DNA of 64,000 bases from Chiloscyllium plagiosum (taxonomy: Eukaryota): positions 2,399,199 to 2,463,198 of the forward strand of contig NC_057759.1 in the NCBI RefSeq assembly GCF_004010195.1, given 5' to 3'. Under the pieces are notes generated by a model. The model had not been told where the DNA came from, made no database searches, and worked only from the letters and a program-made list of their open reading frames with translations. A program made the translations under genes and the position numbers. Shown here one piece after another: positions 7,004 through 62,971 of this stretch (the stretch's first letter is position 1; the number at the start of each line of letters is the position of its first letter).

Positions 7004-7263
7004 GAATCAAAAGTAGATTTCGAAAATTTAAATATGACAAGTTGGCTCAAGCGTAATGGGTCGAAGACAGGCAAATGGACTGGAAAAACATATCAGGCAC
7101 ACTTGAATGGAGGATCGGGATTCATGGGCAGAATTCTGCCCATCAAGCCCGATCCTCCATTGAATTGTGGCTGATACGTTTTTCCAGTCCATTTGCCTGT
7201 CTTCGACCCATTACGCTTGAGCCGACTTGCCATATGTAAAGTTTCGAAATCTACTTTTCATTC
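7004..7263. repeat. 260-bp spacerless palindrome
   Basis: 130-bp arms centred on GAA|TTC (7133/7134); 11 mismatches counted by hand, no indels. Confidence 0.95.
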
Positions 7264-15486: not shown

Positions 15487-15754
15487 GACGCCGGTGTTGA
15501 ACTGGGGTGTACAAAGTTAAAAGTTGCACAACACCAGGTTATAGCCCAACAGGATTATTTGGACGAACTAGCTTTCGGAGCGCTGCTCCATCATCATATG
15601 GTTGTGGAGAATAAGATTGTAAGACACAGAAATACACTTTGTCTTACAATCTTATTCTCCACAACCACCTGATGAAGGAGCAGTGCTCTGAAAGCTACTG
15701 CTTCCAAATAAACCTGTTGGATTTTAACCTGGTGTTGTGTGATGTTTAACTTTG
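15487..15754. mobile_element. Fold-back Penelope pLTR pair
   Basis: Arms at 15512-15626 and 15640-15754; CTGATGA...GAAAGCTA core at 15669. Confidence 0.85.
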
Positions 15755-17896: not shown

Positions 17897-18104
17897 AGCT
17901 GAAAATGCGTTGCTGGAAAAGCGCAGCAGGTCAGGCAGCATCCAAAGAGCAGAAGAATCGACGTTTCGGGCATGAGACCTTCTTCAGGAGCTCATGCCCA
18001 AAACGTCGATTCTCCTGCTCTTTGGATGCTGCCTGACCTGCTGCGCTTTTCCAGCAACACATTTTCAGCTCTGATCTCTAGCATCTGCAGTCCTCACTTT
18101 CTCC
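17897..18104. mobile_element. Fold-back Penelope pLTR pair inside the Gmr1 integrase
   Basis: Inverted arms; TSD acaatatgctctc / acattatgctctc at 17884-17896 and 18105-18117. Confidence 0.9.
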
Positions 18105-24530: not shown

Positions 24531-25346
24531 ATAATAGTGGTCCCATAAACCTCTCCTCCCCACCTTCCCCTCCCCCCCCCCCCGATTAAGAATTACCAAA
24601 AATTCAAGTTTTCAAAACCACCCAGATATCAAATCTTCTCTTCATATCTTCTTAGGTCTTCTTTTCTTCTTTATAGCGATTTCTGATTCACAGTTTACAG
24701 ATCAATAAAGGTTACTTTTAAGAGAGCTATTTTACCGGCAGTCTTTTTATATGCTGTGGCTTTGCAGTTTTCCTCCCAACGTTCAATTTTCCCAGGTTTT
24801 TTGCCCCCAAGCATCGTATTGTGCCATTAGATTTTAAGATTGTTAATATACTAAATTCAAAATGGATTGGTGTTTGTTTTTTTGGGCTACAATTTAAGTT
24901 GATTGCCTAATTCAGTTATGTTATGTCTCCAGGCAACCTTTATCAGGTCTCCTCTCAACCTTCACTGCCTGGAAGAAAATAACAGAGCTTATCCAGCTTC
25001 TCTTCATCATTGAAATGCTCCATCCACGCAACATTTTGGGAAATCTCCTATACACTCTCTCCAGGACAATCGCATAGCTATTGGAAGAAGGAACAGTGCT
25101 CTGAAAGCTTGTGGTTTCACAAAACCTGTCGGACTATAATCCATTGTCATGTGATTTTTGACTTTGTCCTTCATCAAGGTTGGACACTGGCACTGCTCAC
25201 AGTGCTCGAGCTGTGTCCTCACCAATTTCCTACCCACCTACAAGACCACCTCAATGCTGTTAGAATCCAAACCAAAGATTTATTGACTGCAATGTTTTGT
25301 GTTCCAATCAGATATTGTTTCTAACTTTTGTCACATTTCTTTACAG

Positions 25347-25574
25347 TTTCTGATGAAACTCTAACTCTGGAAGCCAATTCGCAACATGCTCTGAGAGACA
25401 AGAAAATTGTCATGAACTGCCAGATCCCATCCCAGAATTTGAAATGGTGTGAGCTTTTCCAATGGTAATGGAATTTCGGGTTAATAAAGGAAAATGAAGA
25501 TTGTTCATTCGCAACAGAAAGTGCAGCGTATTCAGATGAGGCATCTTATCAAACTGAATTAAAAATTGACGTTA
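25347..25574 (+). pseudogene. Disabled Ig-domain exon (FcR D2-like), receptor gene 1
   Basis: tttctttacag acceptor, phase 1. Reads (V)SDETLTLEANSQHALRDKKIVMNCQIPSQNLKWCELFQW*WNFGLIKENEDCSFATESAAYSDEASYQTELKIDV. In-frame TAA at 25466-25468, second Cys missing after DxxxY, donor reads ggaagt instead of gtaagt. Confidence 0.6.
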
Positions 25575-25689
25575 GGAAGTCAGTTTTGAACCAGCTAAGC
25601 CTCACAGTATCAGGTTTGTCATTCCTTTGTCTAGTTAGTGCTATTGAATATATTGATGACTCTATACCGCCTCTTTGTAATCTGATTTG

Positions 25690-31363: not shown

Positions 31364-31648
31364 GATTTCCAGTGTCAAAACTGGAATTAGTATTTCAACC
31401 TAGAAAGGAGCTTATCGAAAGAGACACAGGATCCTTAATCTGTTCAGTCTCCAAGGGTCCTCAGCTCATTTATTATCAATTTTACCAGGGCTCAAGCATG
31501 CAACTGTGCTGGGAGTTTTCCAACAGCACTGAGCTTGTTAACAACATTGGATCCATCAACAGAAGGGATGAAGAGCTTTACCATTGCTCTGTGAAAATTG
31601 AGGTGACAGGCCCTCAACACAGTGAAGACATAGAGATCACAGTGATAG
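31364..31648 (+). CDS. Ig-domain exon (FCRL/LITR/PECAM-type C2/I-set), receptor gene 1
   Basis: tttcag acceptor and G|gtaag donor; 285 nt, phase 1-1, open. Encodes (G)FPVSKLELVFQPRKELIERDTGSLICSVSKGPQLIYYQFYQG...DEELYHCSVKIEVTGPQHSEDIEITVI, with both Ig cysteines and a PVS...LxC...G..I.Y.FY pattern. Confidence 0.85.
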
Positions 31649-31766
31649 GTAAGATCATAAAGGCTCTCTCCCAAAGATTGACTGAACCTTCAGCTCATGG
31701 GATCATCTCAAAGTTGGTGCTTCCCCCTGAAGGCCACACTTTCGATTAAACCCTCCTATATTTGAT

Positions 31767-32860: not shown

Positions 32861-33292
32861 TACAGAACATGCAAGCACCCCAATAGCACGCTCTCTAGCA
32901 TACTGTTGACCTCATCTTTCTGTCTGAATCCACAAAGGATTTACATAATTTCAAAATTAAGACACCTGCATTTAGACTTCTGTTATGTTTTAGATAAATG
33001 TGTAATTTTCATTTTAGAAAATGCAAGGTTGATTTGCGAGATTGTTACATGATTACAAAGCTAATTATTCGTCCAGGCATAATACTGTGAAGCCAGTAAA
33101 TGCTCGTGAGAACTCCACTTGGTAGTGTACTCGGAGAATACCTATGGGTCAGAATTTGAAAGCTCAAGACCCACTGCAGAATGTGCAAATTACTATAAAA
33201 AAAGACTGATTACAAAATGAAGTAAATTTTGAGTTTTCTTCATGGTAATGTCCCTGATTTACCAAGGTAACTCCTTTGTGCCTTCACCGCAG

Positions 33293-33412
33293 TTCATTAT
33301 TCCATTGAACAGCTATTTCGCCTGTGTCTTGTAGTCATTATTTTGCTTCTGCTCAAACTCCTTCCTGCGCTCAGATTGAGAAATAAATCCAAAGAACTGA
33401 AGAGTATAAAGG
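33293..33412 (+). CDS. Transmembrane exon with N-terminal Arg (activating type), receptor gene 1
   Basis: ccttcaccgcag acceptor and G|gtaaga donor; 120 nt, phase 1-1, open and in frame with 31364-31648. Encodes (V)HYSIEQLFRLCLVVIILLLLKLLPALRLRNKSKELKSIK. Confidence 0.7.
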
Positions 33413-33499
33413 GTAAGAACGGTGTTAAGATTCTATTAGTGATGACAGTTTAACCACCAGAATTTTCTCATTGCCCTTCATGATTTTATTAAAGTAAAA

Positions 33500-34160
33500 C
33501 ATTGCCAATTTAGAGACAATGCACATCTAAATCCTCCTTAAATGTGATGAGTTTCTGTTTCTCCCACCCTTACAGGTAGTGAGTTTCAGATTTCCCATCC
33601 CGTCTGGATGAAAAAGGTTTCCCTCACATTCTCTCCAAACATCCCGCCCCTTATCTTCAATGCCCCTCTCCTAGTCAATGATTCACCCCATCAAAAAGAA
33701 AATTCGTCTTCCGTTTATCCTATTTTTGCCACTTATCACTTTATACATCTTAATCAAGTGCCACTCTCTCAAATGCCTCTACTCTGATGAAAATAACCCC
33801 AGTCTGTCCAATCTCTCTCTATCAATAAAAGTGTCCCGCCCGCAAGGCAAACCTCCTAGAAAATCTCCCTTTCCACACTCGCCCATTGCTAACCTGTCCC
33901 TCCTCAAATGTGGATTCCAGAACTGCATATAATACTCTTGTTGTGTGGCATAAATGATGTTTTATACAGGTCCTGCATTATCCCAACCGTGTTTAATTCT
34001 CGGCTGTTTAAGGTAAATATCCCCATTAAACGTCTGAAATATTTCATCCTATTCTGATAACTTCAGGGACCAGTGGACATACACACCGATGTCCCTCTGA
34101 TCCTCGGTGCTTCCCAGGGGCCTGCTATCAATCATGTGCTCCCCTGCCTTGTCTGTTAAT
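33500..34160 (-). mobile_element. CR1 fragment
   Basis: Minus-strand RT C-terminus pattern (tgtggattccagaactgca). Confidence 0.7.
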
Positions 34161-34365
34161 ATTTTTTTCAGAGCATCTTACATGTGGCACACAGTCTGGT
34201 ACCACTGAACATTGGCTTGGAGGGCACGAATTGTTGAAGATGTGGATGGTTTTGCTCAGGATGCTGTCTATTGTTACGTTTCACTACATTTGAGAATTTT
34301 TAAAGACTATTTTAACATATTTGTAGTGCCAAGATGATCTCATGCTTGTACTTTCTCCATCTCAG

Positions 34366-34373
34366 TAAAATGA
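34366..34373 (+). CDS. Candidate terminal exon for the Arg-TM isoform (V-K-stop)
   Basis: ctttctccatctcag acceptor; the phase-1 join gives GTA AAA TGA. AATAAA at 34540-34545 and 34570-34575. Confidence 0.35.
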
Positions 34374-34815
34374 CGTGGTCTTCTGAAACGTTACAAGGAC
34401 CGCTGACAAAGTCACAGGAAATTTTGAACATTTTGGGCATCAATCTCAGACCTTTGAATGAGTGTTACTACATTGAATTGATGTCCTGTTTATGCCTATA
34501 TCTTAATTCCTTATAGGGAATCTAACCTTCTAGGATAAAAATAAATATTTTGGCATGTCACATGCAACTAATAAACAAATGTTTCCTTAGAACGTAGTTA
34601 ATTGTACGAGAGCTTTGTTCCAGGACGGTATTGAATGAAAAGCTTTTGTTTTCCAATGCGAACTGATGTGAGCAATTACTTTTTTTTAAACTTCTAAATG
34701 CTGCATTGACTGCTGAAGAATAACAATGCGTTCCAAATGTACAACTGGAGCGCCAGTGTATTGGTGGCTGCTGAATATCTCCTTGTTATGGTCTAACATG
34801 TTACCTAATGGTCAC

Positions 34816-35194
34816 GTTAGGGTGTAGGTTTGCTCGCTGAGCTGTAGGTTTGATATCCAGACGTTTCATTACCTGGCTAGGTAACATCATCAGTGGCGAC
34901 CTCCAAGTGAAGCGAAGTTGTTGTCTCCTGCTTTCTGTTTCTATCTTTCTCCTGGATGGGGTTCCTGGGGTTTGTGGTGATGTTGAATGTCATCACCACA
35001 AACCCCAGGAACCCCATCCAGGAGAAAGATATAAATAGAAAGCAGGAGACAACAGCTTCGCTTCACTTGGAGGTCGCCACTGATGATGTTACCTAGCTAG
35101 GTAATGAAACGTCTGGATATCAAAACTACAGCTCAGCGAGCAAACCTACACCCTAAACCTCAACCTGAGCTACAAACCTTCACAAACCTTGCTT
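34816..35194. mobile_element. Fold-back Penelope pLTR pair
   Basis: ~165-bp near-perfect inverted arms (34817-34981 and 34991-35156); atggtcac duplicated at 34808-34815 and 35195-35202. Confidence 0.85.
35077..35116 (+). ncRNA. Minimal type I hammerhead ribozyme motif in a Penelope pLTR
   Basis: CCA-CUGAUGA-(UGUUACCUAG/CUAGGUAAU stem II)-GAAA-C-GUC-UGG, with stem I CCA/UGG. Confidence 0.65.
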
Positions 35195-35354
35195 ATGGTC
35201 ACTGTTAATCCTGGACTGTTAATCAGTCTGATGTTGATAGGGTACGAAGTACCCTCGGATGGGTTAAGAGACCTGAAGGATTCCAGTTGTCCCTAATTGT
35301 TATTAGTACCTTCGTTTTGACTGGAAAGCAACAGTGCCCATTTTAACTCACCAA

Positions 35355-36110
35355 TTAACCCAATAAGGAAGACAAATGCAATGCGAGCATTCTTTTTAAG
35401 AGGGCTTGAATATGAGAGCAGATGAAATGCTGAGGCTGCATAATGCTCTAGTCAGACCACATTTGGAACATTGCAAGCATTGTTTGGACCCGTATCTAAG
35501 GAAGGATGTGCTGAAATTGGAGGGGGTCCAGAGGGGTTCGACAAGAGCGATACATTGTCATATAAGGAGCAGTTGAGGACATTGTGTCTGTACTAGATAG
35601 ATTTTAGAAGGATGCGGAGTTGAATCTGACTGAAGCCGAGAGAAAATTGTGAGGCCTGGATAGAATGGATATAGAGAAGTTAATTCCACTCGATGGAAAG
35701 ACTGTGACCTGAGAGGCACAACGGCCAAGAGAAGAGATGGCCGTTTAGGAATGAGATGAGGAGTTTCTTCAGCTAAAGGGTGGCGAATCCATAGAAACCA
35801 TTGCTGCAGAGGGCCAAGTCATCGCTTGTAATTAAAACACAGATGAATAAGGTGTCCAGTTGTAAGGTGATCGATGGTCTCAGGGAGAAGACAGGAGAAA
35901 GGAGTTGAGAAACATCGCATGGCAGAGTAGATGGATGGGTCGAATAGTCTACAACGTGGAGATGCTGGTTTTGGTCTGGACTGGATAATTCAGAAGTCAC
36001 GCTGCAAGTTATAGTCCAACAGGTTTATTTGAAATCACAGACTTTCGTAGAGCTGTTCTTTCTTCAGGTGAAGTCTGAATGGTCTAATTCTGCGCCTGTG
36101 TTTTATGGTC
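35355..36110 (+). mobile_element. CR1 3' end with a nested Penelope pLTR fragment (~35955-36075)
   Basis: gtcagaccacatttggaaca motif; tatagtccaacaggtttatttg pLTR. Confidence 0.75.
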
Positions 36111-36546
36111 TGACCGTCTGTGTGCGTGTTGTAACAGCAAACGGAAATGGCTAAATCGTTAAAGTCAAGGTACACTCCTTGGATCTTCAGATGATCTGAG
36201 TGGTGACCACATAATTTAGTTTAAGAGTTTTTGGTAGTACTACCTGTGCAAGAGATTGGAATCTGTGACTCCACACATGATAATGTTTGGATCAACACCA
36301 ATCTACAAAAGAATGATCCACAAAATGTCATGTTCTTGAAACTGTGAATTTTGATCCTATTTTACACTGAATACAATCTTTCCATTGTGTCAGACTGCCC
36401 TTGTCCTGTTTTGTTGCAATCTTACATGAAGGTTTAATATCACAAATTACTGATTCCACATTTCACATGTACTTTGGTCGAACTAGATTATTCACTTATT
36501 TCAGATGCACTGCTGAGGTTTCATTTTCTTTACTTTTGTCTTTCAG

Positions 36547-36644
36547 TTGACGTTGTAATTATCTGCAGGTTTTCGTTTTACTTTTAATGATCTTTCTTGT
36601 TTTTTTTCTGCTGATACACAAGAATGCAATGTTCCCATTAGCAG
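36547..36644 (+). pseudogene. Second, uncharged TM exon with an apparent 1-nt deletion
   Basis: Long pyrimidine tract plus tttcag acceptor and G|gtgaga donor; 98 nt (99 would be phase 1-1). (V)DVVI, then a frameshift into LQVFVLLLMIFLVFFLLIHKNAMFPLA. Confidence 0.5.
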
Positions 36645-36999
36645 GTGAGAAACTGTGAAATGGGAATAGATGGGTAAGGTTGCTTCAAGGACCCCCAACT
36701 GAATTGGTGTATTGCATTTGAGGGGAATATTTAATTGAAATACTTCCCAATCATTGGGTAGAGTTCTGCTATTGCTGGTTTGGAAAGTAATGTCAGAGGT
36801 AAACTGGGGAGTATCTGCATTGCATATACTGCAAAGTACTGACTTTTTGAATCAGTGATAGGATGAGTTCAGAGACATGTATTAAAAGGTCGAATGATTC
36901 TAATTGCAGGAATGTAATTGTTGTGAGCTGTTGCATTTTCAATGAGTTATGTGACCATTCACTGACTATCGAGGTCTGTGAAAGACTCAGTCACAAGGC

Positions 37000-39600
37000 A
37001 AGACTGGACATCCTGAAGGTTAGTTAAACGTGACTTGAGGGAAGGAAGTGTATCAAACTGTAACCAGATTCGCAGAAGAAACAAAAAAATATGCAGAAAG
37101 GCAAGCTGCGAGAGGGATACAAATAGATTACAGGGCGATTTATTTGGATAAGTCAGGATGCAAAAAGTTGGCAAATGAAGTATGGTGCGGATCAAATGTG
37201 AAATAATTTACAGATAGCAATGAACGTTGTATATGGCTCGCTTTTCCATTCACACACATACAGATGGCAATGTCTTATTGAGACGTAAAATTCGACAATA
37301 CCAACATGAAAGAATAATTACAAGGATTGTGCAGTGCATTATTATACTTGTGCTATCTCTGGACAGAACGGTTTGTGACATTTGTCCAACACCGGCTCTT
37401 CCAAGTCATTGCATGATTACATTTAGCCTTTATTGTATTTCTTCATAAAGTAATATTCGAGCCTATTATGGTACTCACCAGCACTGCCTGCATCACTACT
37501 TTTACGTTTTGGGTCACTTTCTGAACTGAATTAAGGGTTAAGCAGGCCAGCGTCGATACAGAAACAAAGCGGGTGAGTCAAGTACTGATCTCAAAGGGGC
37601 GAGAAGCTTGTACCACGTTACCTGGAATGGCGCAAAATCAGGATGAGGCCGGGGATGGCAAACCGTGGATAACTGAAACCACTGAAATCGGATTCGTGGA
37701 TACTGCGGTCGTCCTGTATTTTGGAAGGGAAAAGCATTAAATAACAAAACTTATTTAAATGGAGATAAAATGCAAGATGCTCCAACACAAAGAGATTTGA
37801 AGGGACTTGTGCATGAAACACAGAAGGCGAGCACACAGGGACAGCAGGTAATCAGGAATGGCCAATGGAATGCTGGTCCTCATTTGAACTGGCTTGGAGT
37901 ATAAAAGTAGGGAAGACTTACTGTTACTGTGCCAGGTGATGGTGAGACCATATCTGGAAAATTGGGAGCAGTCTTGATCCCCTTATTTCAGGAAAGATAT
38001 CAATTCACTGAAAGCAGTCCAGACAAGTTTCTTTAGCATAATCCCTGCCATGTAGGGATTGTTTTATGAGCAAATGCTGCAAAATTAGGTACTCTACGCA
38101 CTGGTATATAAGAGAATGAAAGATGATTTCATTGATATCAATAGGAGTTTGACAGGGTCAATGCTGAGAGGATGTTTTCCCCCCTCATGGGAGACTCCGC
38201 GACCAGATGGCACAATCTCAGAATAAAGGGGCACCAACTGAAGATTTATATGAGAAGGGATTTCTTCACTCAGAGAGTTATGGATCTTTGGAACTCCTTC
38301 TCACAGGGAGCTGTGCAGAAGCAAAATCCTTACATATATTGAAAACAGAGACAGATATATTTTTGACCAGTTGAAGATTCAAGGGAAAATGCAGAATATT
38401 AAATGAGCCATGCCCTTATTGAATGGTGGAACAGGCTGAAGTGATCGAATGCTGGAAATGTGTTGCTGGAAAAGCGCAGCATCCAGGGAACAGGAGAATC
38501 GACGTTTCGGGCATAAGCCCTTCTTCAGGAAGGGCTTATGCCCGAAGGGATCGAATGGTCTATTCCTGTTCCTGGTTCTTATGATCTTATTATGTGGTTT
38601 AAGTGTTGCAAATGAAAAAGTTAGAAGACCACAAACATACAGCCGGTGGGGCGAGGCCACACCTGCTATATTATGTGTGCAGTTTGGGTCGCCTTATCTG
38701 ATAAAGGATTTTGTGCCTATGGAGGGAAATGCAGCGAACGTTTCGCAGACAGATTCCTGAGACGGCAGGTGAAGAGAGAATGTATCAAGGAGGATTATAT
38801 TCACTGGAGATTAGAAGAATGACAAAGGGGTCTGATAGAAACCTATAAAATTCTAATAGGACTAGACAGGGTAGATGCAGGAAGGATATTCCTTATAGTG
38901 GAGGGGTCCAGAACAAGGGCGTCTGACTAAGGATACAGGGTCGGCAATTTAGGAATGTGCCAGGGAGAAATGTCTCTCCCCCACAGAGTGTTGAACATTG
39001 TTGTTTCATCCCAAGACATTGTGCTTTCAAGAAGAATAGAGCTTCTGTGTTTTAAGGGAAATGGAGCGGAGGGCAAAATGAGGAGATCGAGTCAATGATC
39101 AGCAACAAACACATCGAATGGGCAGAGAAAGCTTGATGGGCATAATAGCCTCCTCCGGCTCCTATATTCTACGTTTCTATGTTGAAGATAATTTGTCAGT
39201 GACAGTCAAAGAGAGTAAGCTGAACTATTGATGAAAGGTAACTCAATGGTTCCTTCAAGGGATCACAGTGAAATTCACCGTTGACATGATGGTCTCCTTG
39301 GAAGCAGCTCACAATTGAAGTAAATTGCTCTCCCGAGATTTTAGATTTTTAAATCTTGTATCCAGACAATGCAAAAGGGATGTCAGGAAGCACTTCTGCA
39401 CACAAAGGTTGGTGGTGGATTGGAACTTTCTTTCACAAACAGCAGTGGATGCCAGATCAGTTGTTAGTTTTAAATCTGAAAGAGAGAATTTTTCATTAAG
39501 TAAAGGTATAAAAGGGATAGGGACCAAAGGTAAGTCTACAGAATTAGCCCACAGATTCGTCACTCAATGGTGGACCAAGATTGAAGGGCTGAATGACCTA
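37000..39600 (+). mobile_element. Cluster of CR1 3' fragments
   Basis: Several RT C-terminus and 3' UTR copies. Confidence 0.75.
38452..38543 (-). mobile_element. Tiny Penelope pLTR insertion with terminal hairpin, in a CR1 tail
   Basis: TSD gaag(t/g)gatcgaatg at 38438-38451 and 38544-38557. Confidence 0.8.
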
Positions 39601-40059
39601 ATCTTAAAGTCTCCCGTCCAATCGTATCTGTCAGTGCAAGTGAGTGCATCTTATTCTTAGCCTCCATAAATGCATACTCATGTATTAGTGGATCAAGCCG
39701 GTGTGTGATAACCTGCATCACGTGACAGTGGATGAATTGTAACAAATCTTTCCTCAGTTAAGGGGAATTCTTTGAAGTATGCACTCATGGGAACATAGGG
39801 AGAGGAGTAGGCCATTCAGCCCATTGACACTGTTCCATCATTGATGTATCAAGCACATACTTATTTCCTGGACTTCAATTACAATTTAGGATACATGCCA
39901 GATTTCAGATTTACTTTCTGGTCAGTGCCTGTGCCAGCCAATACGTTGACAGTGCATTTCCTTTTGATAAAAGTACAAAACAAGTAAGCCCAGTTAAATC
40001 AGCCTCGCTATCACTGGATTCACAATGTAGTAAAATTAAGAAAACAATTTCTTTACCAA

Positions 40060-40665
40060 CGGTGCTCAGATGGAGGTGATCAAGAGCTTCAATGTTTTCA
40101 GAGTAAATACTGTCAATAATTTGTTCTCGTCTATCCACATTGTCATGATAATCAATAAAGCACATCAATGGCTTTACTGCCTTGTCCACAATGACTTTTC
40201 CAAATTTTGCTCGGTGCACCGTAGAGAGCATCCTATCTGGATGCATCACAATGTGTGGTATGGCTACCGCTTTGCTCAAGCCCACAGAATAAATTACAGA
40301 GAGTTGTGAACGCAGCCGAGTCCAAGATGGAAACTAACTTTTCACCCATTGACTCTGTCTACCCTTCCCACTGACTTGCGACAGCAACCAACACAATCAA
40401 AGCCCTACACACTATAGTTATTATCCTTCCATCCCCTTCCATCAGGCAGAAGACACAAACGTTTGAAAGCATATACCAATAGAATTAAGAACATCTTCTT
40501 CTCTGCTGTTATCACATTATCGAATGATCCTCTCTTTATCTGCACCTACTCTGTAGCGGTAACACTATATTCTGCATTCTGTTCGAGTACCCTGATATAC
40601 TTATATAAGATATGATTTGCCTGGTTAGCATGCAAACCAATACTTTTCACAATATCTCTGATTCA
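40060..40665 (+). mobile_element. Rex1/Babar LINE 3' end
   Basis: KAHQWLY-type C-terminus and a tail similar to 5230-5480. Confidence 0.7.
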
Positions 40666-40929
40666 ACACGTTGGCAGAGAAGTAGGGAGTGCATGGACTC
40701 CTATGCCTTGGCTTCTCCTCTCCATCCACAATTTTTTTTTCTTTGCGTTTTTTCATTCTTCCACTTTCTTCTCAATCTACCTATTGAAGAGAGCACTTAC
40801 ACAGGTAGCGGCTTGGTTGGGCTCCAGACCAGCGGAGGCATTTTCAGAGACAGCGTGGCTACAGAACCGGTCAGTCTGTGAAATCTGGAGCAGGACTCCC
40901 ACTTGAGAATGAACTAGGCATCACGTGGC

Positions 40930-41560
40930 GGCATAGTATATGCTGGAAGCCTGGTGCTGGATCCTCTCCACGGCATGGTGTAGGTTGGAAAGCTTGAAGG
41001 TCTGAAAGCCCAGAGCGAGACACTCTCGGCTGCATGGTGTGAACTGGGAATCATGGAGGGGGACACTGTCGGCGGCATGGTGTGGGATAGGAAGCCTGGA
41101 ATGGGACACCCCCAGTAGCAAGCGTGTGCTGGGGAACTCGGAGTGGAACACACTCGACTGCAATGCGTGGGTCAGTAAGCCAGGAGGGGGATACCCTTGG
41201 CTGCATGGTGCGGGCTGGGAAGCTCAAAGCGTAACACTCTAAGCTGTATGCTGTGTGCTGGGAAGCCAGGAGGGGCACATTCTTGGCTGCATGGTTTACG
41301 CTGGGAAGCCAGGAGGGGGACAGCCTCGGCTGCACGGTGTGGGGTGGAAAGCCCAGAGCTTGACACTCTCAGCTGTATGGTGGGCGCTGGGAAGCCAAGG
41401 AGGGGGACACTCTTGGCTGAATGGCACAGGCTGGAACACCAGGAGGGGAGACTCCTGGCTGCATGGTGTGGGTTAGAAAGCCAAAGGGGTCACTTTCAGC
41501 AGCATGGCGTGACTTGGGAAGCCCGCAGCGGGAGTCTGCTCGTGCTATGGTGTAGTTGCT
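40930..41560 (+). repeat. G-rich minisatellite, ~41-bp unit, roughly 15 degenerate copies
   Basis: Unit resembles ggctgcatggtgtgggctgggaagccaggagggggacactc. Confidence 0.9.
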
Positions 41561-42929
41561 GGAAAGAAGTATTTGGACTGTCATTTTTAAAGTTTAATTC
41601 AAAGTTAATATAAATGGGGCCTATTCATGGGTGACGGTGCAGATTGTCTCTATACTTTTATATTGAACACATTTAACATAAGTGAAATTCTAATAATAAA
41701 CCAAATAGAATAAAATCAATGATCCTCAAAATTGTCTGATTATTCCTAACTTTGTGTTAAACCAAGGGGGTGCTTATGGGATCCTGTCAACAATGGAACA
41801 GTTGAAGTTTAGTGTTTAAGTAATGCTTGGACATGTTAAGTATTTCCCCAGTGCAGAGCTATGACAATTCATCTATTCCTGAATTTTGAATGTGTCTTGA
41901 GGATAAAATATGTTTTGACTAAAGCTTAACAGTGGACAATTTGAATCATGTCTGGTATAGAGCATGTTACACTTGCCTTTATAAAACTATGAACTTTGGG
42001 TCCAGGCTATCCCCATAATATGATTGTGTGGGGGGCGGGGCGGGGGGGGGGGGGTGTCAGGTGTCGTCCATAACATGCCTTAAAACCATGCTTTCTTGAT
42101 GGCAGCGTCAACGTGGATAGCCCAGTCGAGATTGTTGGTGGTGTCTCCTTCCTGATTACCTGTTAGCCCTTTTGTGCCAGCTTTCTGTGTTTTACACACA
42201 ATCGCTGCCCAAATCCCTTTGTGTTGCAGCTTTCTGCAGTATCTCCCCATATGAATAATATTCAGTAATTTTGCTCGCCTTTCCAAAATGTACCACTTCA
42301 CAATCTCCCACAATATACCCCATTTGGCAATTCTTTGCCCACTTATTTAGTATTTCAATATCTCTCTGTAAGGTATTTGGATCGCTCTCACAACTTGCCT
42401 TTCCACATATTTTTTGTGTCATCTGCTAAGTAGGCTGCAGTCCGATTCACTCCCGTACATGAATTCACATTCATCTGACCTTTAGAATATCCAGAATATG
42501 GTTTAATATTTCATGGACATTGATAGTCACTGACTGGTAAGTCAAACCATTGAAAAACCAACAGTTCCCAATGATTGCCTTCTCATGCCTGGAATAGACA
42601 GTTACATTCAGAAAACAAAAGACTGGGGCAACTCACATGGCTGTCAGTCAAAAACGCCATGATGATTGGATGACTGATCTTAGATAAGTCGTGTTAAATG
42701 ATATCAAGAGACATATGGATGACTCTCCTATGACTCCTATCACTCTGCCTATAACTCAAATAAAAGGAGTGAGTGTACTTTTGTTTCTGGGGTATCAGGT
42801 TTAAAATTATGTTTCCAAAATAGTTGTTCATGATAAATTGGAAATTGTAACGAGCATTTGAAGGAAAATACATGAAAGAAAAACAGGCTTAGTGTATAAG
42901 CACAACAAAAACTGAACCGACACACCCAA

Positions 42930-44525
42930 CACAAACCTCCTCTGCTTGGCCATCAACAACTTTACTTTTAACTCCTATCATTTTCTTCACGTCAGACGGG
43001 TGGCCATGGTTACCCACATGGGCCCCAATTATGTCGGTTCTTCGCAGGATACAGGGAACAGTATTTGTTCCACCCCTATTCTGGATATTATCCACAACTG
43101 TATCTGATATATCGATGATATCATTAGTGCTGCTTCACTCTCTCATCTGGAATTGGAAAAGATAATCGTTTTCACTTCCCATTTCAACCCGACCTTCACT
43201 TTCACCTGGTCTAGCCTCACTTTCACTTCTCTTAATATTTCCTTGAAATCTCTGTTTCCATTTATGTGTATAGACTGGCCGCAAATATTCAGTATAAACG
43301 CACTGATTCCACAGCTACCTGGATTGTACATCCTCATACCCCGTTTCCTGTATAGATTTTATTCCATTCTCCTGGTTCCTCCACTTCCATCACTTATGTT
43401 TAGATGAGGCAAACTTTGAAAGAGAGCCCCTGAAATATCCACCGGCTTTCTCAATTGAGGATTTCTCAGTACCGTTGTAGATAAGGCTCTGAAGAATGTA
43501 TGACCCTCTCCTGCACATCCATTTTCACACCCTCTCTTCCTTACTGAAACATCAATAGAGATCCCTTGCCCTTATGTTACACCCCACCACCATCCACATC
43601 CACAAAATCGCCAGCTACCCTTTCTCCACCTCCAGCTAGATGCCACCATCTAGCACATATTCTTCTTCCCTCCCTTGCCCACATTTTACCGGGATTATTC
43701 CCTCTTGGATATCCTAGTCCACTGTTACTTCAGTAATAACAACGCCCTCGCCTCCCACAACTCCACAATACCTTCCCCTGCAACCTTCAAAGTTGTTACA
43801 CCTGCCCATTAACGTCTTCCCCCTCTGTATCCAAGGGACCAAACATACCTTCCAGCTGAAGCAGCACTTTGCCTGAACTTCTCACAATTTGGTCGACTGC
43901 ATTCACTGCTCACAATGTTATCTCCTCCACATTGGGGAAATGAAGCCTAACTGGCTGACTGCTTCGCAAGACATTTACGTTGTACCTTTTTAAAAAAGGC
44001 CCTAAGCTTCCATTATCTGCCAGTTTAACACACCATTCTGTTCCTTGCCCAGCAGTTTATCTCAGGCTGGCTGTAGTCTTCCAGCGAAGCTCAGCACAAG
44101 ATGAAAGAACAACACCTTATTTTTCACTTGGAGACAATACAATTCTCTGGAATCAATACTGTACTGAGTTCAATAATTTTAGGGTCTAAGCTCACCCATA
44201 TCCTCGCCCCTACTCCAATCACCAGGTTTGTTATCACGTGATCTGCCATTACACACTATCTATTGTCAGCTACTAACAGTCTCCATTAACAGGTATTAAC
44301 CCTTCTAACCAGATTGTTACGACTTCTTGTCAGTCCAACAGTCTTCTTTCTCTTTGGACTCTATCCCTACATAACGTTTACTCCTTTCCACCGCCACCAC
44401 CCGATCTTCCATAATTTCCGAGTTACTATGAGTTCTGAGGAAGGGTCACCGGACCTGAAACATAAACTCTGATTTCTCTTCTCAGATGCTGCTGAACATT
44501 TCCAGCTCTTTCTGTTTTTGTTAGT
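42930..44525 (+). mobile_element. Older Penelope-like element (RT, GIY-YIG and pLTR remnants)
   Basis: GVAMVTHMGP-like and YIDD RT motifs at ~43000-43120; CIHCSQC...IGE motif at ~43900; ctgagga...gaaac pLTR core at ~44435. Confidence 0.8.
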
Positions 44526-45319
44526 GTGCAAGCAGGCTGTTTTGACGAGCATTAAACTTGCCTTACCTTCAGAAAAGCTTGTTTGTAGCAACACAGGTTT
44601 GCCATCACCAAACAAAGAAGAAGGCTTGGGAACTTGTTCAGAATGACAATGCAGCATGCAATGTCAGATTCAGGACAGTGCATCAAAGACATCTCCCAGA
44701 TTTTTGGGATCCTTCTCTTTTGGAACCTTTCACCATTGGCCAGGGTTATGTGACTTGCAAGTTGGGCTCGAGCTCCAAGTGCGAGGAGTTACCCAAGCAT
44801 AAGACAAGGCGGGGAGACACACTTATTGAATATATGTATAACACTTTAAGTTCATAGATGTGTTCATTATTTTGCACATTTCTAAATTAGTCTGCATTAA
44901 TAAATCACGTCGCCGTGAAGGCCAATATACAGGTTGTTTTCTAAACTATCTGTTGTGTCTGCAATACGCATTTCTAGCGATTGGTGTATAAAGAACACTC
45001 TAGGTCTGGTTTAACATTCCTCTATCTTAGTTCACAGATAATCAGATGATGATCCACCTTCCTAATTTTGCTGCCAAACTGCCTTTCTGCTTTTTGTTGT
45101 CAAAAGCTACCCAGAATTTAAATAACAATCTGCCAGCAGGTACTTGACACAAATTATTTAAACAATGGACTACTGGGTGTTGATAAATTCGAGAGAGAAA
45201 ACAAACATGATCCAAAGAGCAAGATTAAGGAAATCACTCCACCTTTGACTGTATTGATCCTCAAAATTTGCCTTGGGACACAAAGAATCTTCCCATGCCA
45301 CATGATGCAATAGTCCCAT

Positions 45320-45617
45320 TCTAGATTAGAGTGGTGCTGGAAAAGCACAGCAGTTCAGGCAGCATCCAAGGAGCAGGAAAATCGACGTTTCGGGCAAAAG
45401 CCCTTCATCAGGAATAGAGGCAGAGTGCCTGCAGGATGGAGAGATAAGAAACGATCGTGAGCTTCCTGCAGGCACTCTGCCTCTATTCCTGATGAAGGGC
45501 TTTTGCCCGAAACGTCGATTTTCCTGCTCCTTGGATGCTGCTTGAACTGCTGTGCTTCTCCAGAACCACTCTAATCTAGAATCTAGTTTCCAGCATCTGC
45601 TTTTGTTTTTACCCTGT
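45320..45617. mobile_element. Fold-back Penelope pLTR pair
   Basis: ~118-bp inverted arms; TSD aatagtcccat at 45309-45319 and 45618-45628. Confidence 0.9.
45486..45519 (+). ncRNA. Minimal hammerhead motif in a Penelope pLTR
   Basis: CUGAUGA-A-GGGC-UUUU-GCCC-GAAA-C-GUC; stem I is only about 2 bp. Confidence 0.55.
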
Positions 45618-45663
45618 AATAGTCCCATCCACGTTGTGAACGCTCGGGGCAATGACAGTAATC

Positions 45664-45665
<2 letters not shown>

Positions 45666-45703
<38 letters not shown>

Positions 45704-45737
45704 TGTGTGTGAATGTGCGTATGTGTGTATGTGAGTG
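45666..45737 (+). repeat. (TG)n microsatellite
   Basis: Seen directly. Confidence 0.95.
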
Positions 45738-45833
45738 TACTGATCTTCACTTTCAGACAAAGCTAAGTTAAGTATCTCTCAAAACTTGGAGCTTGTGTTT
45801 GTGGATTTTCATCTTTTCTTTTTACTCTCTCAG

Positions 45834-45889
45834 ATGAAGGCAAGAGACAATGCCAACAAGGCCATTACTTAATTGTGGATATGCCATAA
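45834..45889 (+). CDS. Candidate last coding (cytoplasmic) exon of receptor gene 1
   Basis: Strong acceptor ttttctttttactctctcag; phase 1 gives (D)EGKRQCQQGHYLIVDMP*, containing YxxV. Confidence 0.45.
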
Positions 45890-47129
45890 ATTTTGAGATG
45901 TTGCATCCAGTGAGACATTCCCTCTGTCAGGGGTGACACGTGTGCAATGTTGTACTATGTCCTCCACTTTTATTTTATAAAGACAAGTTTCCAGTCACAG
46001 CTCTGGCTATTGCTCACTGCGGAATGAATGCAAATCCAAGAATCAGTGATACCCACACGTCAGAAATAGCAATATATTTTATTTCAGTGCATGTTTTAGT
46101 TTATATTTTGTTGCATTTGCAACACTGCTTACACAGATCTTCCAAACTAAAATCACTCCACTGGCTGTCCTGTGAGTGTAAAATAATGTTTTTGAAAAGA
46201 AAGAAGTAGCATGCAGATTCTTGCAGAGTTGTTCAGTATGGTTCAGACAGTCTGCGAGGAGAGAAGCGCTTGGAGAGGCTGCGAGCTTCAGGGCTGTTTC
46301 TTTTCTGGGAAGAATCCACACTTATCCCTTCTTGACACTAGGTGTTATGTGCAAACTTTAGCTGGAATTTCCGGTTCCATCACAACAACGGTGTAAGTAA
46401 CTGAGAAAATCATTTATATGTGTCTGTATTCTGACAGGGGTTAAGTGGGAAGCATTGTCAGATGGTGTAACATTTCAGTGCGTTACGTGATCGTTGTTTC
46501 AATGGAGTTGTTATCGAACTAGTGCCTTCGTTTTCCAAAAGCATTAAGATTTAGCATTTGAGATTTGATCTTGTTTTTACCTTTTAAACTTGAATGGAAC
46601 TAACTCCATTCTTAGCAATATTTTCAAAAACAAATCCTTTAATTTAATAAATAATTTATCTTTTCAACAATTGATAAGTATATGAAGGTAAGACAGTTCG
46701 TCGTGCATTTAAAAGAGGGCTCAAGAGTTACAGTGTTAATGGTATGGCACCATTTTGATGGATGTATACTCCATTATGTAAAACGATGTTAGAAGTTTAA
46801 GCAGCAAATGTCATATCCATCTATGTATTTTCACATGCACCACTTCTAGTGTTCGACTCCACCTTACTTGGAGTACAGGAGAAATTAAACAAAGTTGAGA
46901 ATACTGCTTTTCCAGGCCAGGAGTTACATTAAAATGTGTTGACGCCGCCGTTTACAAAAATAAATAGTTGTTAGATATCTTCACTGGGCATATTTGCTTT
47001 GACGAGGCTTGACTCAGTCGTTGCTAATCTTCAATCCCTTCCTGACACAAAGGATAGCTGGGGTCTAATCTCACATCTTTGGAATATTGAGTGCAATCCT
47101 TATCTCCCTCCTGAACGAAGAATGTTTTG

Positions 47130-55659: not shown

Positions 55660-56080
55660 ATTAAATACTGAGGCGATCTTACACAGATTAGGCCTGATTT
55701 TTTCCAGGATTTGGACGGTTAATGGGTGATCTGATCGAAGATATTGACAGGAAAAGACATGGTGGATAAGGAGAAGCTATGTCCACTTTATGGGGAAATT
55801 GTGAGGGCATAGTCTGAGACTTAGGACTGGACCATTGAGGAGAGATGTTATGAAGCACTTCCACATCACAAAGGCTGGGAGAGATTTTTAACTCTTTTCC
55901 AGAAACGGCAGTGGATGATGGAGCAGTTGTGAAATTTCAATCCGAGATCGATCAATGTTTGTTTAACAGCAATATGAAGGTGATAGGGGCCAAAGGCAGT
56001 TATATGGAGATAAGCCACAGATCAGCCATTAAATAGCAAAATAGGCTCGTGAGGCTGAATGACCTACTGCTGTTCCTGTG
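55660..56080 (+). mobile_element. CR1 3' end
   Basis: 3' UTR ggctgaatgacctactgctgttcct. Confidence 0.7.
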
Positions 56081-56159
56081 AAAGCAATTGACTAACTGGA
56101 AATGTGAGCACAGTATGGAGCGAGCAACCTCTTTTTCTTGTTACTGTCTCCTGTTACAG

Positions 56160-56277
56160 GTAAATGTGAGTGAGCAAAGGCATTGCTGTAGCAGGCACCA
56201 GGTCATTCTGAGTTGGAAACTGCTGTGCCATCAAACCGCGTCGGAAATATCGCAGATCTCCGTGCTTCTGATCCTCT
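56160..56277 (+). CDS. Leader (signal peptide S1-like) exon of receptor gene 2
   Basis: ctcctgttacag acceptor and T|gtaagt donor (phase 1). The last 31 nt (56247-56277) read ATA-SQISVLLIL and join in frame to the Ig exon at 62726. Confidence 0.5.
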
Positions 56278-56356
56278 GTAAGTGTGTGTGATGGAGGAAC
56301 TTTATCCCTGACAAACCTGCTTTGTTCTCCGGTCACGGGAGGTTATATTCTGCAGC

Positions 56357-56452
56357 AGATAACCACACACTTCCTTCTCAGTTCCTGGAAAGAAGGAATT
56401 GATTACTGTGGCTAACAAAAAAAACCAAGGTTGGCAGAAAGCGGAAATGAAA
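56357..56452 (+). promoter_or_regulatory. Haematopoietic TF motif cluster just downstream of the leader exon
   Basis: AGATAA 56357, AACCACA 56361, CACTTCCT 56368, TTCCTGGAA 56382, GGAAATGAAA 56443. Confidence 0.5.
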
Positions 56453-56719
56453 GGAATTGTGAGCTTGGATGATAGCGTTTCCCGAGAGAGGGAGAGAGAG
56501 AGAGAGAGAGAGAAAGAACGAGCATTTCAGGTTATTGTCCTTTGTACAATATTATTCAATCTTCTCTGAAATGGATGCAAGTTACACACACACGTACACT
56601 ATGGTCAGAAAATTTCAGGAGAATTTCAGAATACCGCAAAGGAATGGAAACGCGATTACTTTTCATCAACAATAAGACATTTAGCAGGCTGTCACCTTGG
56701 GATCTGGAGAGTTTCAGTG

Positions 56720-57120
56720 ATGGAGCGAGATTGGACAGAGATGGATTGTTTTCCTTAGAGCAGAGGAGATTGAGAAGTGGGGTGGGAGGTTGTGGTGGGA
56801 TATGAAGTATGAAATGATAAGGGGGTAGAGAGGGTAGACAAGAAAAATGCCTTTCCCTTTGATGGTGAAATCAATAGCGAGGGTGCGGGTTTCGGACGGG
56901 ATGAATAGATGGAAGGTAAGGGGGAGGAGGTGTAGATGGGATCTGAGGCAAAAATGAGGGTGATGGAGAATCACTGCCTGTAAGGGTCCTTCAATGTGCA
57001 CTTGCGAAACCAATGTGCCAATGCTGGGAAAATGGGACGACAGTATAGTCAGGTGATTGTTTCTGACTGGCACAGATTTGATGGGCCGAAAGGTATTTTC
57101 TGCGCTGTCGACCTCTTTGG
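56720..57120 (+). mobile_element. CR1 3' end
   Basis: GLFSLEQRRLR. Confidence 0.7.
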
Positions 57121-60508: not shown

Positions 60509-61624
60509 GAGAAAGTGAGGACTTCAGATGCGGGAGATCAGAGCTGAAAATGTGTTGCAGGAAAAGTGCAGCAGGTCAGGCAGCATCCAAGGAACATGAG
60601 AATCGACGTTTCGGGCATGAGCCCTTCTTCAGGAATGAGGAAAGCGTGTCCAGCAGGCTAAGATAAAAGGTAGGCAGGAGGGACTTGGGGGAGGGGCGTT
60701 GGAAATGCGATCGGTGGAAGGAGGTCAAGGTGAGGGTGATAGGCCGGAGTGGGAGCGGAGAGGTCAGGAAGAAGATTGCAGGTAAGGAAGGCGGTGCTGA
60801 GTTCGAGGGATTTGACTGAGACAAGGTGGGGGGAGGAGAAATGAGGAAACTGGAGAACTCTAAAGACCACTCCCTCCGTGACTCCCTCGTCAGGTCCACT
60901 CCCGGCACCTTCCCCTGCAACCGCAAGAAATGCAAAACTTGCGCCCACACCTCCCCCCTTGCTTCCCTCCAAGGCCCCAAGGGATCCTTCCATATCCACC
61001 ACAAATTCACCTGCACATCCACACACATCATTTATTGCATCCGCTGCACCCGATGTGGCCTCCTCTATATTGGGGAGACAGGCCGCCTACTTGTGGAACG
61101 TTTCAGAGAACACCTCTGGGACACCCGGACCAACCAACCCAACCAACCCGTGGCTCAACTCTTCAACTCCCCCTCCCACTCCACCAAGGACATGCAGGTC
61201 CTTAGACTCCTCCATCGCCAGACCATAGCAACACGAAGGTTGGGGGAAGAACGCCTCATCTTCCGCCGAGGAACCCTCCAACCACAAGGGATGAACTCAG
61301 ATTTCTCCGTTTTCCTCATTTCCCCTCTCCCCAACTTGTCTCACTCAAATCCCTCGAACTCCGCACGACCTTTCTAAACTGCAATCTTCTTCCTGACCTC
61401 TCCGCCCACACCCACACTCCGGCCTATCACCCTCACCTTAACCTCCTTCCACCGATCGCATTTCCAACGCCCCTCCCCCAAGTCCCTCCTCCCTACCTTT
61501 TACCTTAGCCTGCTGGACACACTTTCCTCATTCCTGAAGAAGGGCTCATGCCTGAAACGTCGATTCTCCTGCTCCTTGCATGCTGCCTGACCTTCTGCGC
61601 TTTTCCAGCAACACATTTTCAGCT
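60509..61624 (+). mobile_element. Penelope-like element: inverted pLTR, GIY-YIG endonuclease 3' part, pLTR
   Basis: ORF FTCTSTHIIYCIRCTRCGLLYIGETGRLLVERFREH; ~320-bp inverted arms; TSD gctgctgcttaatagtg at 60492-60508 and 61622-61638. Confidence 0.93.
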
Positions 61625-62725: not shown

Positions 62726-62971
62726 GTTTTGGAAGGCCCGTGTTTTACATATACCCAACAAGTAGGTTTGTGAAAGAAGGAGAGACTTTAAAATTGGAAT
62801 GTGGGGCAGATAAAGGAAGAGTTGTTTATTGTTGCAAAAATGAAGAGCAATTCACTCAAACACAGAGCAATGCTAATGAAATACTCGTGAACAGTGAAAT
62901 TGCTGGATCTTATTCCTGCATAAGACATTATGAATGTCTCAAGAGTGCATCTGTTGTAATTGTCATCATTT
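62726..62971 (+). CDS. Ig-domain exon (FcR D1-like), receptor gene 2; gene continues beyond the window
   Basis: tctctttcttcag acceptor and T|gtaagt donor; 246 nt, phase 1-1, open. Encodes FGRPVFYIYPTSRFVKEGETLKLEC...IAGSYSCIRHYECLKSASVVIVII. Confidence 0.85.

What the first reader, a model, noticed from the sequence alone, without database searches (positions are those of the whole stretch)
33293..45889. One receptor gene with two alternative TM/tail modules (Arg-type activating versus uncharged with Tyr tail)
Seen: after the last Ig exon comes TM-A (HYSIEQLFRLCLVVIILLLL), then a V-K-stop exon with two AATAAA signals. Further on are TM-B (LQVFVLLLMIFLVFFLLIHK) and a tail exon ending HYLIVDMP*. 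Known: the Y-x-x-x-N-L-x-R TM start of LILRA/OSCAR/GPVI-type receptors pairs with FcR-gamma; here it is QxxR. Inference: the ancestral gene could make paired receptors from one ectodomain by alternative splicing/polyadenylation. TM-B needs a 1-nt correction, and YLIV is not a canonical ITIM because the -2 residue is G.
Basis: partly seen in the sequence, partly recalled or inferred. Interest (0 to 1): 0.72.

Follow-up and report, generated by a model that had tools for sequence, protein, structure and literature searches.

The report
Decayed shark activating-type Fc-like receptor
This is a broken shark gene of the Fc-receptor-like family whose first membrane exon carries an arginine anchor like that of activating immune receptors, a type likely present but unannotated in sharks, while the second, frameshifted membrane exon is likely an orphan remnant and not an on/off splicing switch.

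Summary
The exons, coordinates and splice sites are as described. The locus is a decayed carpet-shark FCRL gene: one Ig exon has a stop and a lost Cys, most domains are missing, and no leader was found.

TM-A is real. It sits in register with the NxxR activating anchors of bichir and frog FCRLs, and a second genomic copy shows in two DNA runs. None of 69 shark or ray FCRL proteins with a TM has this type.

The 'paired switch' reading is unsupported. TM-B's frameshift is real in two samples, and TM-B is single-copy at ≥82% identity. TM-B and its tail are unrelated to the family's inhibitory TM and ITIM exons. 'Uncharged' depends on where the break is put: 18 of 39 placements keep an Arg before the helix. 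No splice junction was seen. TM-B is still unlikely to be chance (3 of 140 block shuffles).

The value lies in the hint of activating FCRLs in cartilaginous fish.

The parts
25347..25613 (+). Broken Ig exon (family domain type 'Ig2'), phase 1-1; in-frame TAA at 25466 and second Ig cysteine lost
   Evidence: (77-residue-scale HMM hit, 70.9 bits vs control max 3.4)
31364..31648 (+). Open C2-type Ig exon ('Ig6'), FCRL-like; last Ig exon of the gene
   Evidence: Pfam Ig_2, E 3e-6; best PDB hit FCRL5, E 1.8e-8; 67-76% identity to carpet-shark FCRL models
33293..33412 (+). TM-A: Arg-type (TM1/NxxR-like, here QxxR) transmembrane exon with basic juxtamembrane stretch; open, phase 1-1
   Evidence: second genomic copy seen as contig joints 33060>33133 and 33162>33297
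33413..33493 (+). Alternative end of TM-A by read-through of the donor: stop at 33451-33453, ATTAAA at 33488 (candidate only)
34366..34575 (+). Candidate terminal exon (V-K-stop; AATAAA at 34540 and 34570); weak acceptor, single-copy, use unproven
36547..36644 (+). TM-B: 98-nt exon-like unit with strong splice sites and a hydrophobic frame anchored on the donor; one base short of a phase 1-1 exon; single-copy; no homologue found
45834..45889 (+). Candidate last coding exon (17 codons then stop in phase 1; one Tyr, not an ITIM); AATAAA-type hexamers at 46646 and 46884; link to TM-B unproven
   Evidence: no homologue
56247..56277 (+). First leader exon of the next family gene; start codon position reads ATA (context, not part of the finding)
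   Evidence: score 30.1 vs next best 14.1
62726..62971 (+). First Ig exon of the next family gene (context)

Best explanation
The locus is a decayed Fc-receptor-like gene of a carpet shark whose one open membrane exon, TM-A, carries an arginine anchor and likely made it an activating receptor; TM-B and the far tail exon are likely an orphan remnant of a separate, lost unit, not a second splice option of this gene. How it would have worked: ligand bound the C2 Ig domains (inferred). The Arg at the outer end of the helix would pair with the acidic residue of an ITAM adaptor dimer of the FcR-gamma or CD3-zeta kind (inferred from Xenopus XFL TM1, where this was tested, PMC2413239). A short basic tail carried no signal of its own (shown for the V-K-stop and the read-through endings). 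The gene would have arisen in the usual paired-receptor way, by joining an ectodomain of an ITIM-bearing paralogue lineage to a TM1-type exon (inferred: its nearest Ig6 neighbour, the gene of XP_043539735, has the inhibitory module in other isoforms). It then lost exons and gained a stop (shown). Activating and inhibitory forms come from separate genes of the cluster (inferred).
For: FCRL-type Ig domains, inside a 100/98-supported carpet-shark clade of 23 of 44 rows. Decay: stop and lost Cys in Ig2, four family domain types not found as exons of their own, no leader for this gene. End branch 0.22 against 0.11 for its sister row. Of the 23 listed differences from paralogue contigs, 15 are non-synonymous and 8 synonymous, near the neutral share of 0.28 synonymous; the list is partial. 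TM-A is in register with two bony-vertebrate TM1 anchors, and a second copy with its upstream intron shows in X2 and X7. The depth excess of X2 in bin 33130-33312 equals 46 nt, exactly the two pieces implied by the joint. The family's inhibitory TM and three tail exons score at background in the window. TM-B is single-copy, frameshifted in 2 of 2 DNA runs laid, and has no RNA-guess contig in X15, a run that does hold paralogue Ig6 contigs. In Xenopus the two TM types lie in separate, intermingled genes as modelled (PMC2413239, passages and section 5).
Against: TM-B lies only 3.1 kb behind TM-A, on the same strand, with better splice sites than TM-A. One added base would make it a 99-nt phase 1-1 exon, the length I infer from protein sequences for the family's inhibitory TM exon. 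No remnant Ig exon of a separate gene was found between or near them: the only candidate, near 39997, scores 4.0 bits against a control maximum of 4.9. No intact shark protein with TM-A was found (0 of 25 candidates; 0 of 146). TM-A has Q for the conserved N, and it shows weak similarity to the inhibitory TM start (p 0.04-0.5 at a shift of +1 for most rows). The Xenopus study used TM exons as gene delimiters, so it could not have seen two-TM genes.
Confidence: 0.55

Rival explanations
1. One reading: the ancestral gene chose between TM-A (activating, proximal polyA) and an uncharged TM-B with a Tyr tail by alternative splicing and polyadenylation, giving paired receptors from one ectodomain.
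For: Order, strand and phases fit. TM-B is beyond the shuffle null. The layout with a proximal polyA exon before a downstream acceptor is what alternative last exons look like (general knowledge). No Ig remnant lies between the modules.
Against: No junction seen. TM-B is broken and single-copy. It is not homologous to the family's inhibitory TM or tails. The tail Tyr fails the ITIM pattern (Gly at -2). Lack of charge holds for only 18 of 39 break placements, plus 3 with a distant Arg.
Confidence: 0.12
2. TM-B was a second membrane exon of this gene but also Arg-bearing (base lost in or after the T run at 36570-36573), so the gene had two activating-type or same-sign anchors and no on/off pair.
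For: 10 of 14 break placements inside homopolymer runs keep the Arg right before the hydrophobic run; slippage in runs is a common indel route (general knowledge).
Against: This reading does not align with the TM1 anchors (p 0.76 and 0.92). The Arg is two codons nearer the exon start than in TM-A. No homologue was found.
Confidence: 0.1
3. TM-B and the tail are chance: a T-rich tract next to a polypyrimidine acceptor that happens to end at a good donor, and an unrelated strong acceptor 9 kb on.
For: No protein or DNA homologue. A frame correction is needed. Only one Lys follows the helix, a weak stop-transfer signal. Stronger acceptors occur in this window at sites with no sign of a coding exon (for example 33576).
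Against: The filter fires in only 3 of 140 block shuffles and 0 of 130 other null strands, and TM-B lies beside a real TM exon; thresholds were post hoc.
Confidence: 0.15
4. TM-B is a 5' exon (UTR plus signal peptide) of a downstream transcript: an ATG at 36587 opens 19 codons to the phase-1 donor with no correction needed.
For: The frame from ATG 36587 to donor 36645 is open and starts hydrophobic. The next gene's own leader has lost its ATG.
Against: Family leaders are split into two short exons (PMC2413239 section 5). The start context is weak, Pro lies at -3 of the likely cleavage site (general knowledge), and the next Ig exon is 26 kb away.
Confidence: 0.08

Closest known systems
Xenopus FcR-like receptors (XFL), TM1 class (Guselnikov et al. 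2008, PMC2413239; passages and section 5 read)
   Same: FcR-type C2 Ig exons in phase 1, an Arg anchor at the start of the TM, a very short tail, and a cluster of mixed genes and fragments. XFL TM1 was shown to associate with FcR-gamma.
   Different: QxxR instead of NxxR. TM-A has a usable donor, whereas Xenopus TM1 and tail share one exon. This copy is broken. Adaptor binding is untested.
Carpet-shark RefSeq FCRL/PECAM-like models (e.g. XP_072422740, XP_043539735, XP_043539665, XP_048379848)
   Same: Ig6 67-76% identical, same domain types and flanking intron sequence.
   Different: All 69 TM-bearing shark or ray sequences retrieved (of 95, isoforms counted) lack the TM1-type anchor; the carpet-shark ones share one uncharged-core TM, mostly with an ITIM tail. 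In 46 of 50 matches Ig6 is followed by a further Ig domain, which this gene lacks.
Mammalian FcR-gamma-coupled LRC receptors LILRA2, PIR-A, NKp46, GPVI, OSCAR, Fc-alpha-R (as listed in PMC2413239)
   Same: Arg-type TM start, short tail.
   Different: Their ectodomains are KIR/LILR-type; here the best solved relative is FCRL5. I did not align their sequences.
Teleost LITRs (PMC4810170, passages read)
   Same: Fish FCRL-related paired family; the stimulatory IpLITR 2.6b has a charged TM and short tail and binds FcR-gamma and CD3-zeta-like adaptors.
   Different: Its charge is a Lys, and neutralising it did not stop adaptor binding, so charge alone does not fix function.
Splice-based signal switching in paired-receptor families, e.g. 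horse CEACAM1 paralogues (PMC5856374, passages read); NKp30 and 2B4 tail isoforms (recalled, no call)
   Same: Alternative splicing at the TM or tail changes signalling.
   Different: Those alter or drop one TM or tail.

Membership tests
FcR/FCRL-like family (XFL, shark FCRL models) | C2 Ig domains of the FcR-like subtypes | tested here: met
FcR/FCRL-like family (XFL, shark FCRL models) | One phase 1-1 exon per domain | tested here: met
FcR/FCRL-like family (XFL, shark FCRL models) | Signal peptide split over two short exons | tested here: inconclusive
   No leader found for this gene in the window; the next gene has a 31-nt first leader exon, its second not found
FcR/FCRL-like family (XFL, shark FCRL models) | Linkage to CD2/SLAM, IGSF9, DUSP23 genes | not testable with these tools
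   No genome held
Activating TM1 class (NxxR) | Arg at the N-terminal end of the TM, in register from the exon start | tested here: met
   TM-A at shift 0 with Polypterus XP_039598086 and Leptodactylus XP_075139685
Activating TM1 class (NxxR) | Asn three residues before the Arg | tested here: not met
   Gln in TM-A, a conservative change; whether it is decay or the shark form is unknown
Activating TM1 class (NxxR) | Short tail without Tyr motifs | tested here: met
   V-K-stop and read-through endings have no Tyr; which ending is used is unknown
Activating TM1 class (NxxR) | Association with FcR-gamma | not tested
Inhibitory TM2/ITIM class (for TM-B and tail) | Uncharged TM | tested here: inconclusive
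   Depends on break placement
Inhibitory TM2/ITIM class (for TM-B and tail) | ITIM (I/L/V/S-x-Y-x-x-L/V/I) in the tail | tested here: not met
   Gly at -2, single Tyr
Inhibitory TM2/ITIM class (for TM-B and tail) | Homology to the family's own TM and tail exons | tested here: not met
   HMMs of 12-24 sequences give background only; blastp
One-gene paired receptor by alternative TM exons | Both Ig-to-TM junctions in transcripts | tested here: inconclusive
   None among the 15 joints shown of 242; little RNA coverage
One-gene paired receptor by alternative TM exons | Both modules intact or conserved together in paralogues | tested here: not met
   TM-B broken and single-copy while TM-A has a second copy

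The most novel reading that the evidence does not exclude
The ancestor of this locus was a shark FCRL gene with two alternative last modules, an Arg-type activating anchor and a different anchor with a Tyr-bearing tail, so that one ectodomain could be wired to opposite signals by splice and polyA choice; an intact orthologue survives in another shark.
Probability: 0.12. Interest if true: 0.65.

Novelty: new member of a known kind. Interest (0 to 1): 0.34.

Why it matters
The switch itself is unproven and sits in a dead gene. What stands is TM-A.

A 2014 survey (PMC4016189) and a 2026 review (PMC13337447) state that cartilaginous fishes lack FcR-like molecules; the 2014 survey says the same of the FcR-gamma chain. 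Yet RefSeq names many shark FCRL models, and a 2024 single-cell paper lists fcrl3 and fcrl5 in bamboo-shark B cells (PMC11372145). None of the TM-bearing shark models I retrieved has an activating anchor.

An Arg-type anchor spliced in phase behind an FCRL domain, with a second genomic copy, suggests that sharks also have the activating half of the pair. That would date the NxxR-type adaptor-coupling anchor to before the shark/bony-fish split. It points to a concrete gene to look for and a direct co-expression test.

Tried and rejected
No whole genome is held for this window, so the decisive TBLASTN for paralogues could not be run.

Expression. No RNA holder was listed among 24 runs; this is no evidence either way. 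X9 (single-cell RNA, about 2 in 100 of the run read) had no reads on any exon bin, but also none from paralogues on Ig6, so it lacks a positive control. The tail exon at 45834 and the Ig2 stop were outside the stretch laid, so neither was checked in reads. X15 (RNA only by guess) shows depth 1.56 in the TM-A bin. That would fit a 31-39 nt piece of a paralogue transcript, but the piece is not listed, so I do not count it.

Homologue searches for the TM exons were blank: word search with TM-A, PDB, ESM Atlas, Pfam. All are weak for 28-39 residue hydrophobic queries.

Rejected ideas. (1) Assembly error as cause of the frameshift. (2) A decayed Ig7 exon near 39997: background score. (3) TM-B as a copy of the family's first leader exon: the L-Q-V-F-V-L-L likeness exists, but there is no donor at the family position and no DNA alignment. 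(4) TM-B as a diverged family inhibitory TM: best p values of 0.002-0.02 in 4 of 45 comparisons, at differing shifts and break placements. (5) The 'strict' null was set at rounded scores, missed TM-B itself, and is not used. Splice scores come from rough frequency tables of my own recall, not a shark-trained model.

No complex prediction was run.

Literature. Ten searches showed no listing on shark activating FCRLs or two-TM-exon receptor genes. The library lacks most subscription journals, and no supplements were opened. Skate MDIR paired receptors and later LITR/FCRL synteny papers are recalled only. Earlier scan notes: nothing near, nothing by sequence, nothing by words; one search showed 8 of 32 notes on other genes.
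Full report
WHAT THE LOCUS IS. A scan for open phase 1-1 exons of Ig size found one in the whole window, 31364-31648. It is a C2 Ig domain (Pfam Ig_2), and its best solved relative is FCRL5 (E 1.8e-8). Its 13 database hits are Chiloscyllium, Hemiscyllium and Stegostoma models named FCRL or PECAM-like, at 67-76% identity. In a tree of 44 such domains it falls in a carpet-shark clade of 23 rows (support 100/98), next to XP_043539735, on a longer branch (0.22 against 0.11). Domain HMMs built from the retrieved shark and ray proteins find just three Ig exons in the window: 25347-25613, 31364-31648 and 62726-62971. The first has a TAA at 25466 and has lost its second cysteine. The third belongs to the next gene, whose leader at 56247 reads ATA where paralogues have Met. 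For the gene in question no leader was found, and domain types Ig3, 4, 5 and 7 have no exon of their own. Of 23 listed differences between its Ig6 and the paralogue contigs of run X15, 15 are non-synonymous, close to neutral expectation. Only 40 of 343 difference rows were shown, and immune receptors can also evolve fast under selection. The gene is best read as a pseudogene.

THE OBSERVATION. TM-A is open and phase 1-1. TM-B is 98 nt, one short of symmetry. Contigs of two DNA runs from different samples and studies span TM-B without a gap, so the lesion is in the animal and not in the assembly. A filter for splice-flanked hydrophobic segments picks out exactly TM-A and TM-B on the + strand and nothing on the - strand. 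It fires in 3 of 140 block shuffles, 0 of 70 local shuffles and 0 of 60 Markov strands. The thresholds were chosen with the exons in view, so these rates flatter the result; TM-B is still probably a true relic and not noise.

TM-A. From the exon start it reads H-Y-S-I-E-Q-L-F-R-L. Among 146 retrieved proteins a TM1-like pattern hit two, a Polypterus model (XP_039598086) and a Leptodactylus FCRL (XP_075139685). TM-A aligns to both at shift 0 (shuffle p 0.0005 and 0.008), and to 13 shark inhibitory TMs only weakly (p 0.04-0.53). The pattern used to pick the two favours this outcome. Guselnikov et al. [quoted passage not shown] In one search a second contig in both DNA runs matches the intron before TM-A and the start of the exon: joint 33162>33297 at depth 3.4 in X2 and 31.7 in X7, and joint 33060>33133 in X7. 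Depth arithmetic for X2 gives 46 nt in the first bin, exactly the two implied pieces, and about 111 nt in the next, which would carry the match past the donor (inference). So the genome holds at least one more TM-A-type exon. Its sequence was not shown, so I cannot say it keeps the Arg or is intact. None of the 69 TM-bearing sequences among 95 shark or ray FCRL proteins (isoforms counted) has this anchor. How TM-A ends is open. The V-K-stop exon has a weak acceptor (2.9) and no second copy. A stronger acceptor sits at 33576 in a repeat. Read-through of the donor gives a stop at 33451 and ATTAAA at 33488.

TM-B AND TAIL. The family has a well-defined inhibitory module: a TM exon starting A-R-S-Y-S and three tail exons with two to four ITIM-like motifs. 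HMMs of these four exons score only background in the window. TM-B and the 45834 exon match nothing among 146 proteins beyond hydrophobic noise. In both DNA runs, laid at 82% identity, depth over TM-B is essentially that of the locus's own contig, while Ig6 draws several paralogue contigs (depth 32-45 against about 10 in X2). The acceptor frame reads D-V-V-I-I-C-R-F and runs into a T4 run at 36570-36573. Of 39 placements that open the frame, 18 keep this Arg directly before the hydrophobic run, 18 have none, and 3 have a distant one. Of the 14 inside homopolymer runs, 10 keep it. Neither reading aligns with the TM1 anchors. The tail has one Tyr with Gly at -2 and lies 9.2 kb away. Nothing ties it to TM-B rather than to TM-A, since all junctions are phase 1. 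No exon junction is among the 15 joints shown of 242; the tail exon was outside the stretch laid.

MECHANISM. Shown: FCRL-type ectodomain remnants, an open Arg-bearing TM exon, short Tyr-free endings, gene decay, and a fixed-looking frameshift in a single-copy TM-B. Inferred: the ancestral product was an activating receptor that borrowed an ITAM adaptor through the Arg. Its inhibitory partners were separate genes of the cluster with near-identical ectodomains. It arose by joining such an ectodomain to a TM1-type exon. TM-B with its tail is debris of another unit in a cluster that turns over by deletion and duplication. The weak point is that no Ig remnant of that other unit was found, which keeps the dual-module model alive at about one in eight. 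The catfish LITR work (PMC4810170, passages) also warns that TM charge alone does not decide adaptor binding.

COMPARISON AND NOVELTY. By domain type and exon phase the gene is an FCRL-family member; synteny and ligand are untested. TM-A works like the XFL TM1 class but has Q for N, so the NxxR motif is only half met. TM-B fails the tests for the family's inhibitory class. Akula et al. 2014 (PMC4016189, passages) found no FcRL or FcR-gamma in sharks, and a 2026 review repeats the absence of FcR-like molecules (PMC13337447, passages). RefSeq names and a 2024 single-cell paper (PMC11372145, one passage) already show shark FCRL-like genes, so the family is not new. An activating-type anchor in it did not appear in my ten literature searches, in a library that lacks most subscription journals; supplements were not read. 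I rate this a new member of a known kind. Horse CEACAM paralogues (PMC5856374, passages) show that exon-based predictions of signalling type in such families often fail when cDNAs are cloned.

VERDICT. Observation partly confirmed, interpretation half right: TM-A yes, splice switch unsupported. Interest 0.34, carried by the hint of activating FCRLs in cartilaginous fish and a named candidate for the intact gene (XP_043539665). The dual-module case has probability 0.12 and interest 0.65 if true.

Noticed in passing
window 56247-56277 and 62726-62971: The next FCRL-family gene has ATA at its start-codon position and Cys in place of the conserved Ig Trp region (V-Y-C-C-K-N against V-Y-W-Y-K-N in paralogues); probably also decaying. 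Its second leader exon was not found.
   Followed up: partly
P0004 (XP_043539665) against window 31649-31743: This RefSeq model ends by reading from Ig6 into an intron homologous to the window's and has no TM; a candidate for an unannotated intact TM-A-type gene.
   Followed up: no
P0002, P0073, P0074 against window 25187-25346; P0009 and P0010 against 56033-56780: The N-termini of several RefSeq models match intron or repeat sequence of the window, so those annotated starts are likely artefacts; the first also shows intron-level kinship with this gene.
   Followed up: no
window about 36476-36520: A second X2 contig (depth 6.7) matches about 45 nt just upstream of the TM-B acceptor and then continues into repeat sequence; it may mark a related locus that lost or never had TM-B.
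   Followed up: no
window 32950-33350: The second TM-A-like contig has depth 3.4 against 7 in X2 but 31.7 against 13.5 in X7, which may mean copy-number differences between individuals (contig depth is a poor measure).
   Followed up: no
window 41019-41483: Degenerate tandem array of a 43-nt unit, about 11 copies, 66% matches, with a 129-nt higher-order period.
   Followed up: no
window 34817-35156, 45318-45582, 7004-7263, 15512-15754, 17897-18070, 60542-61624: Several near-perfect long hairpins (92-97% arms for most), apparently head-to-head pairs of short high-copy repeats; the first draws very high depth in all runs.
   Followed up: no
P0049 (XP_039598086, Polypterus): One gene model carries an internal NxxR-type TM at residue 398 and a second uncharged TM with Tyr motifs near 961, probably two neighbouring genes fused by annotation.
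   Followed up: no
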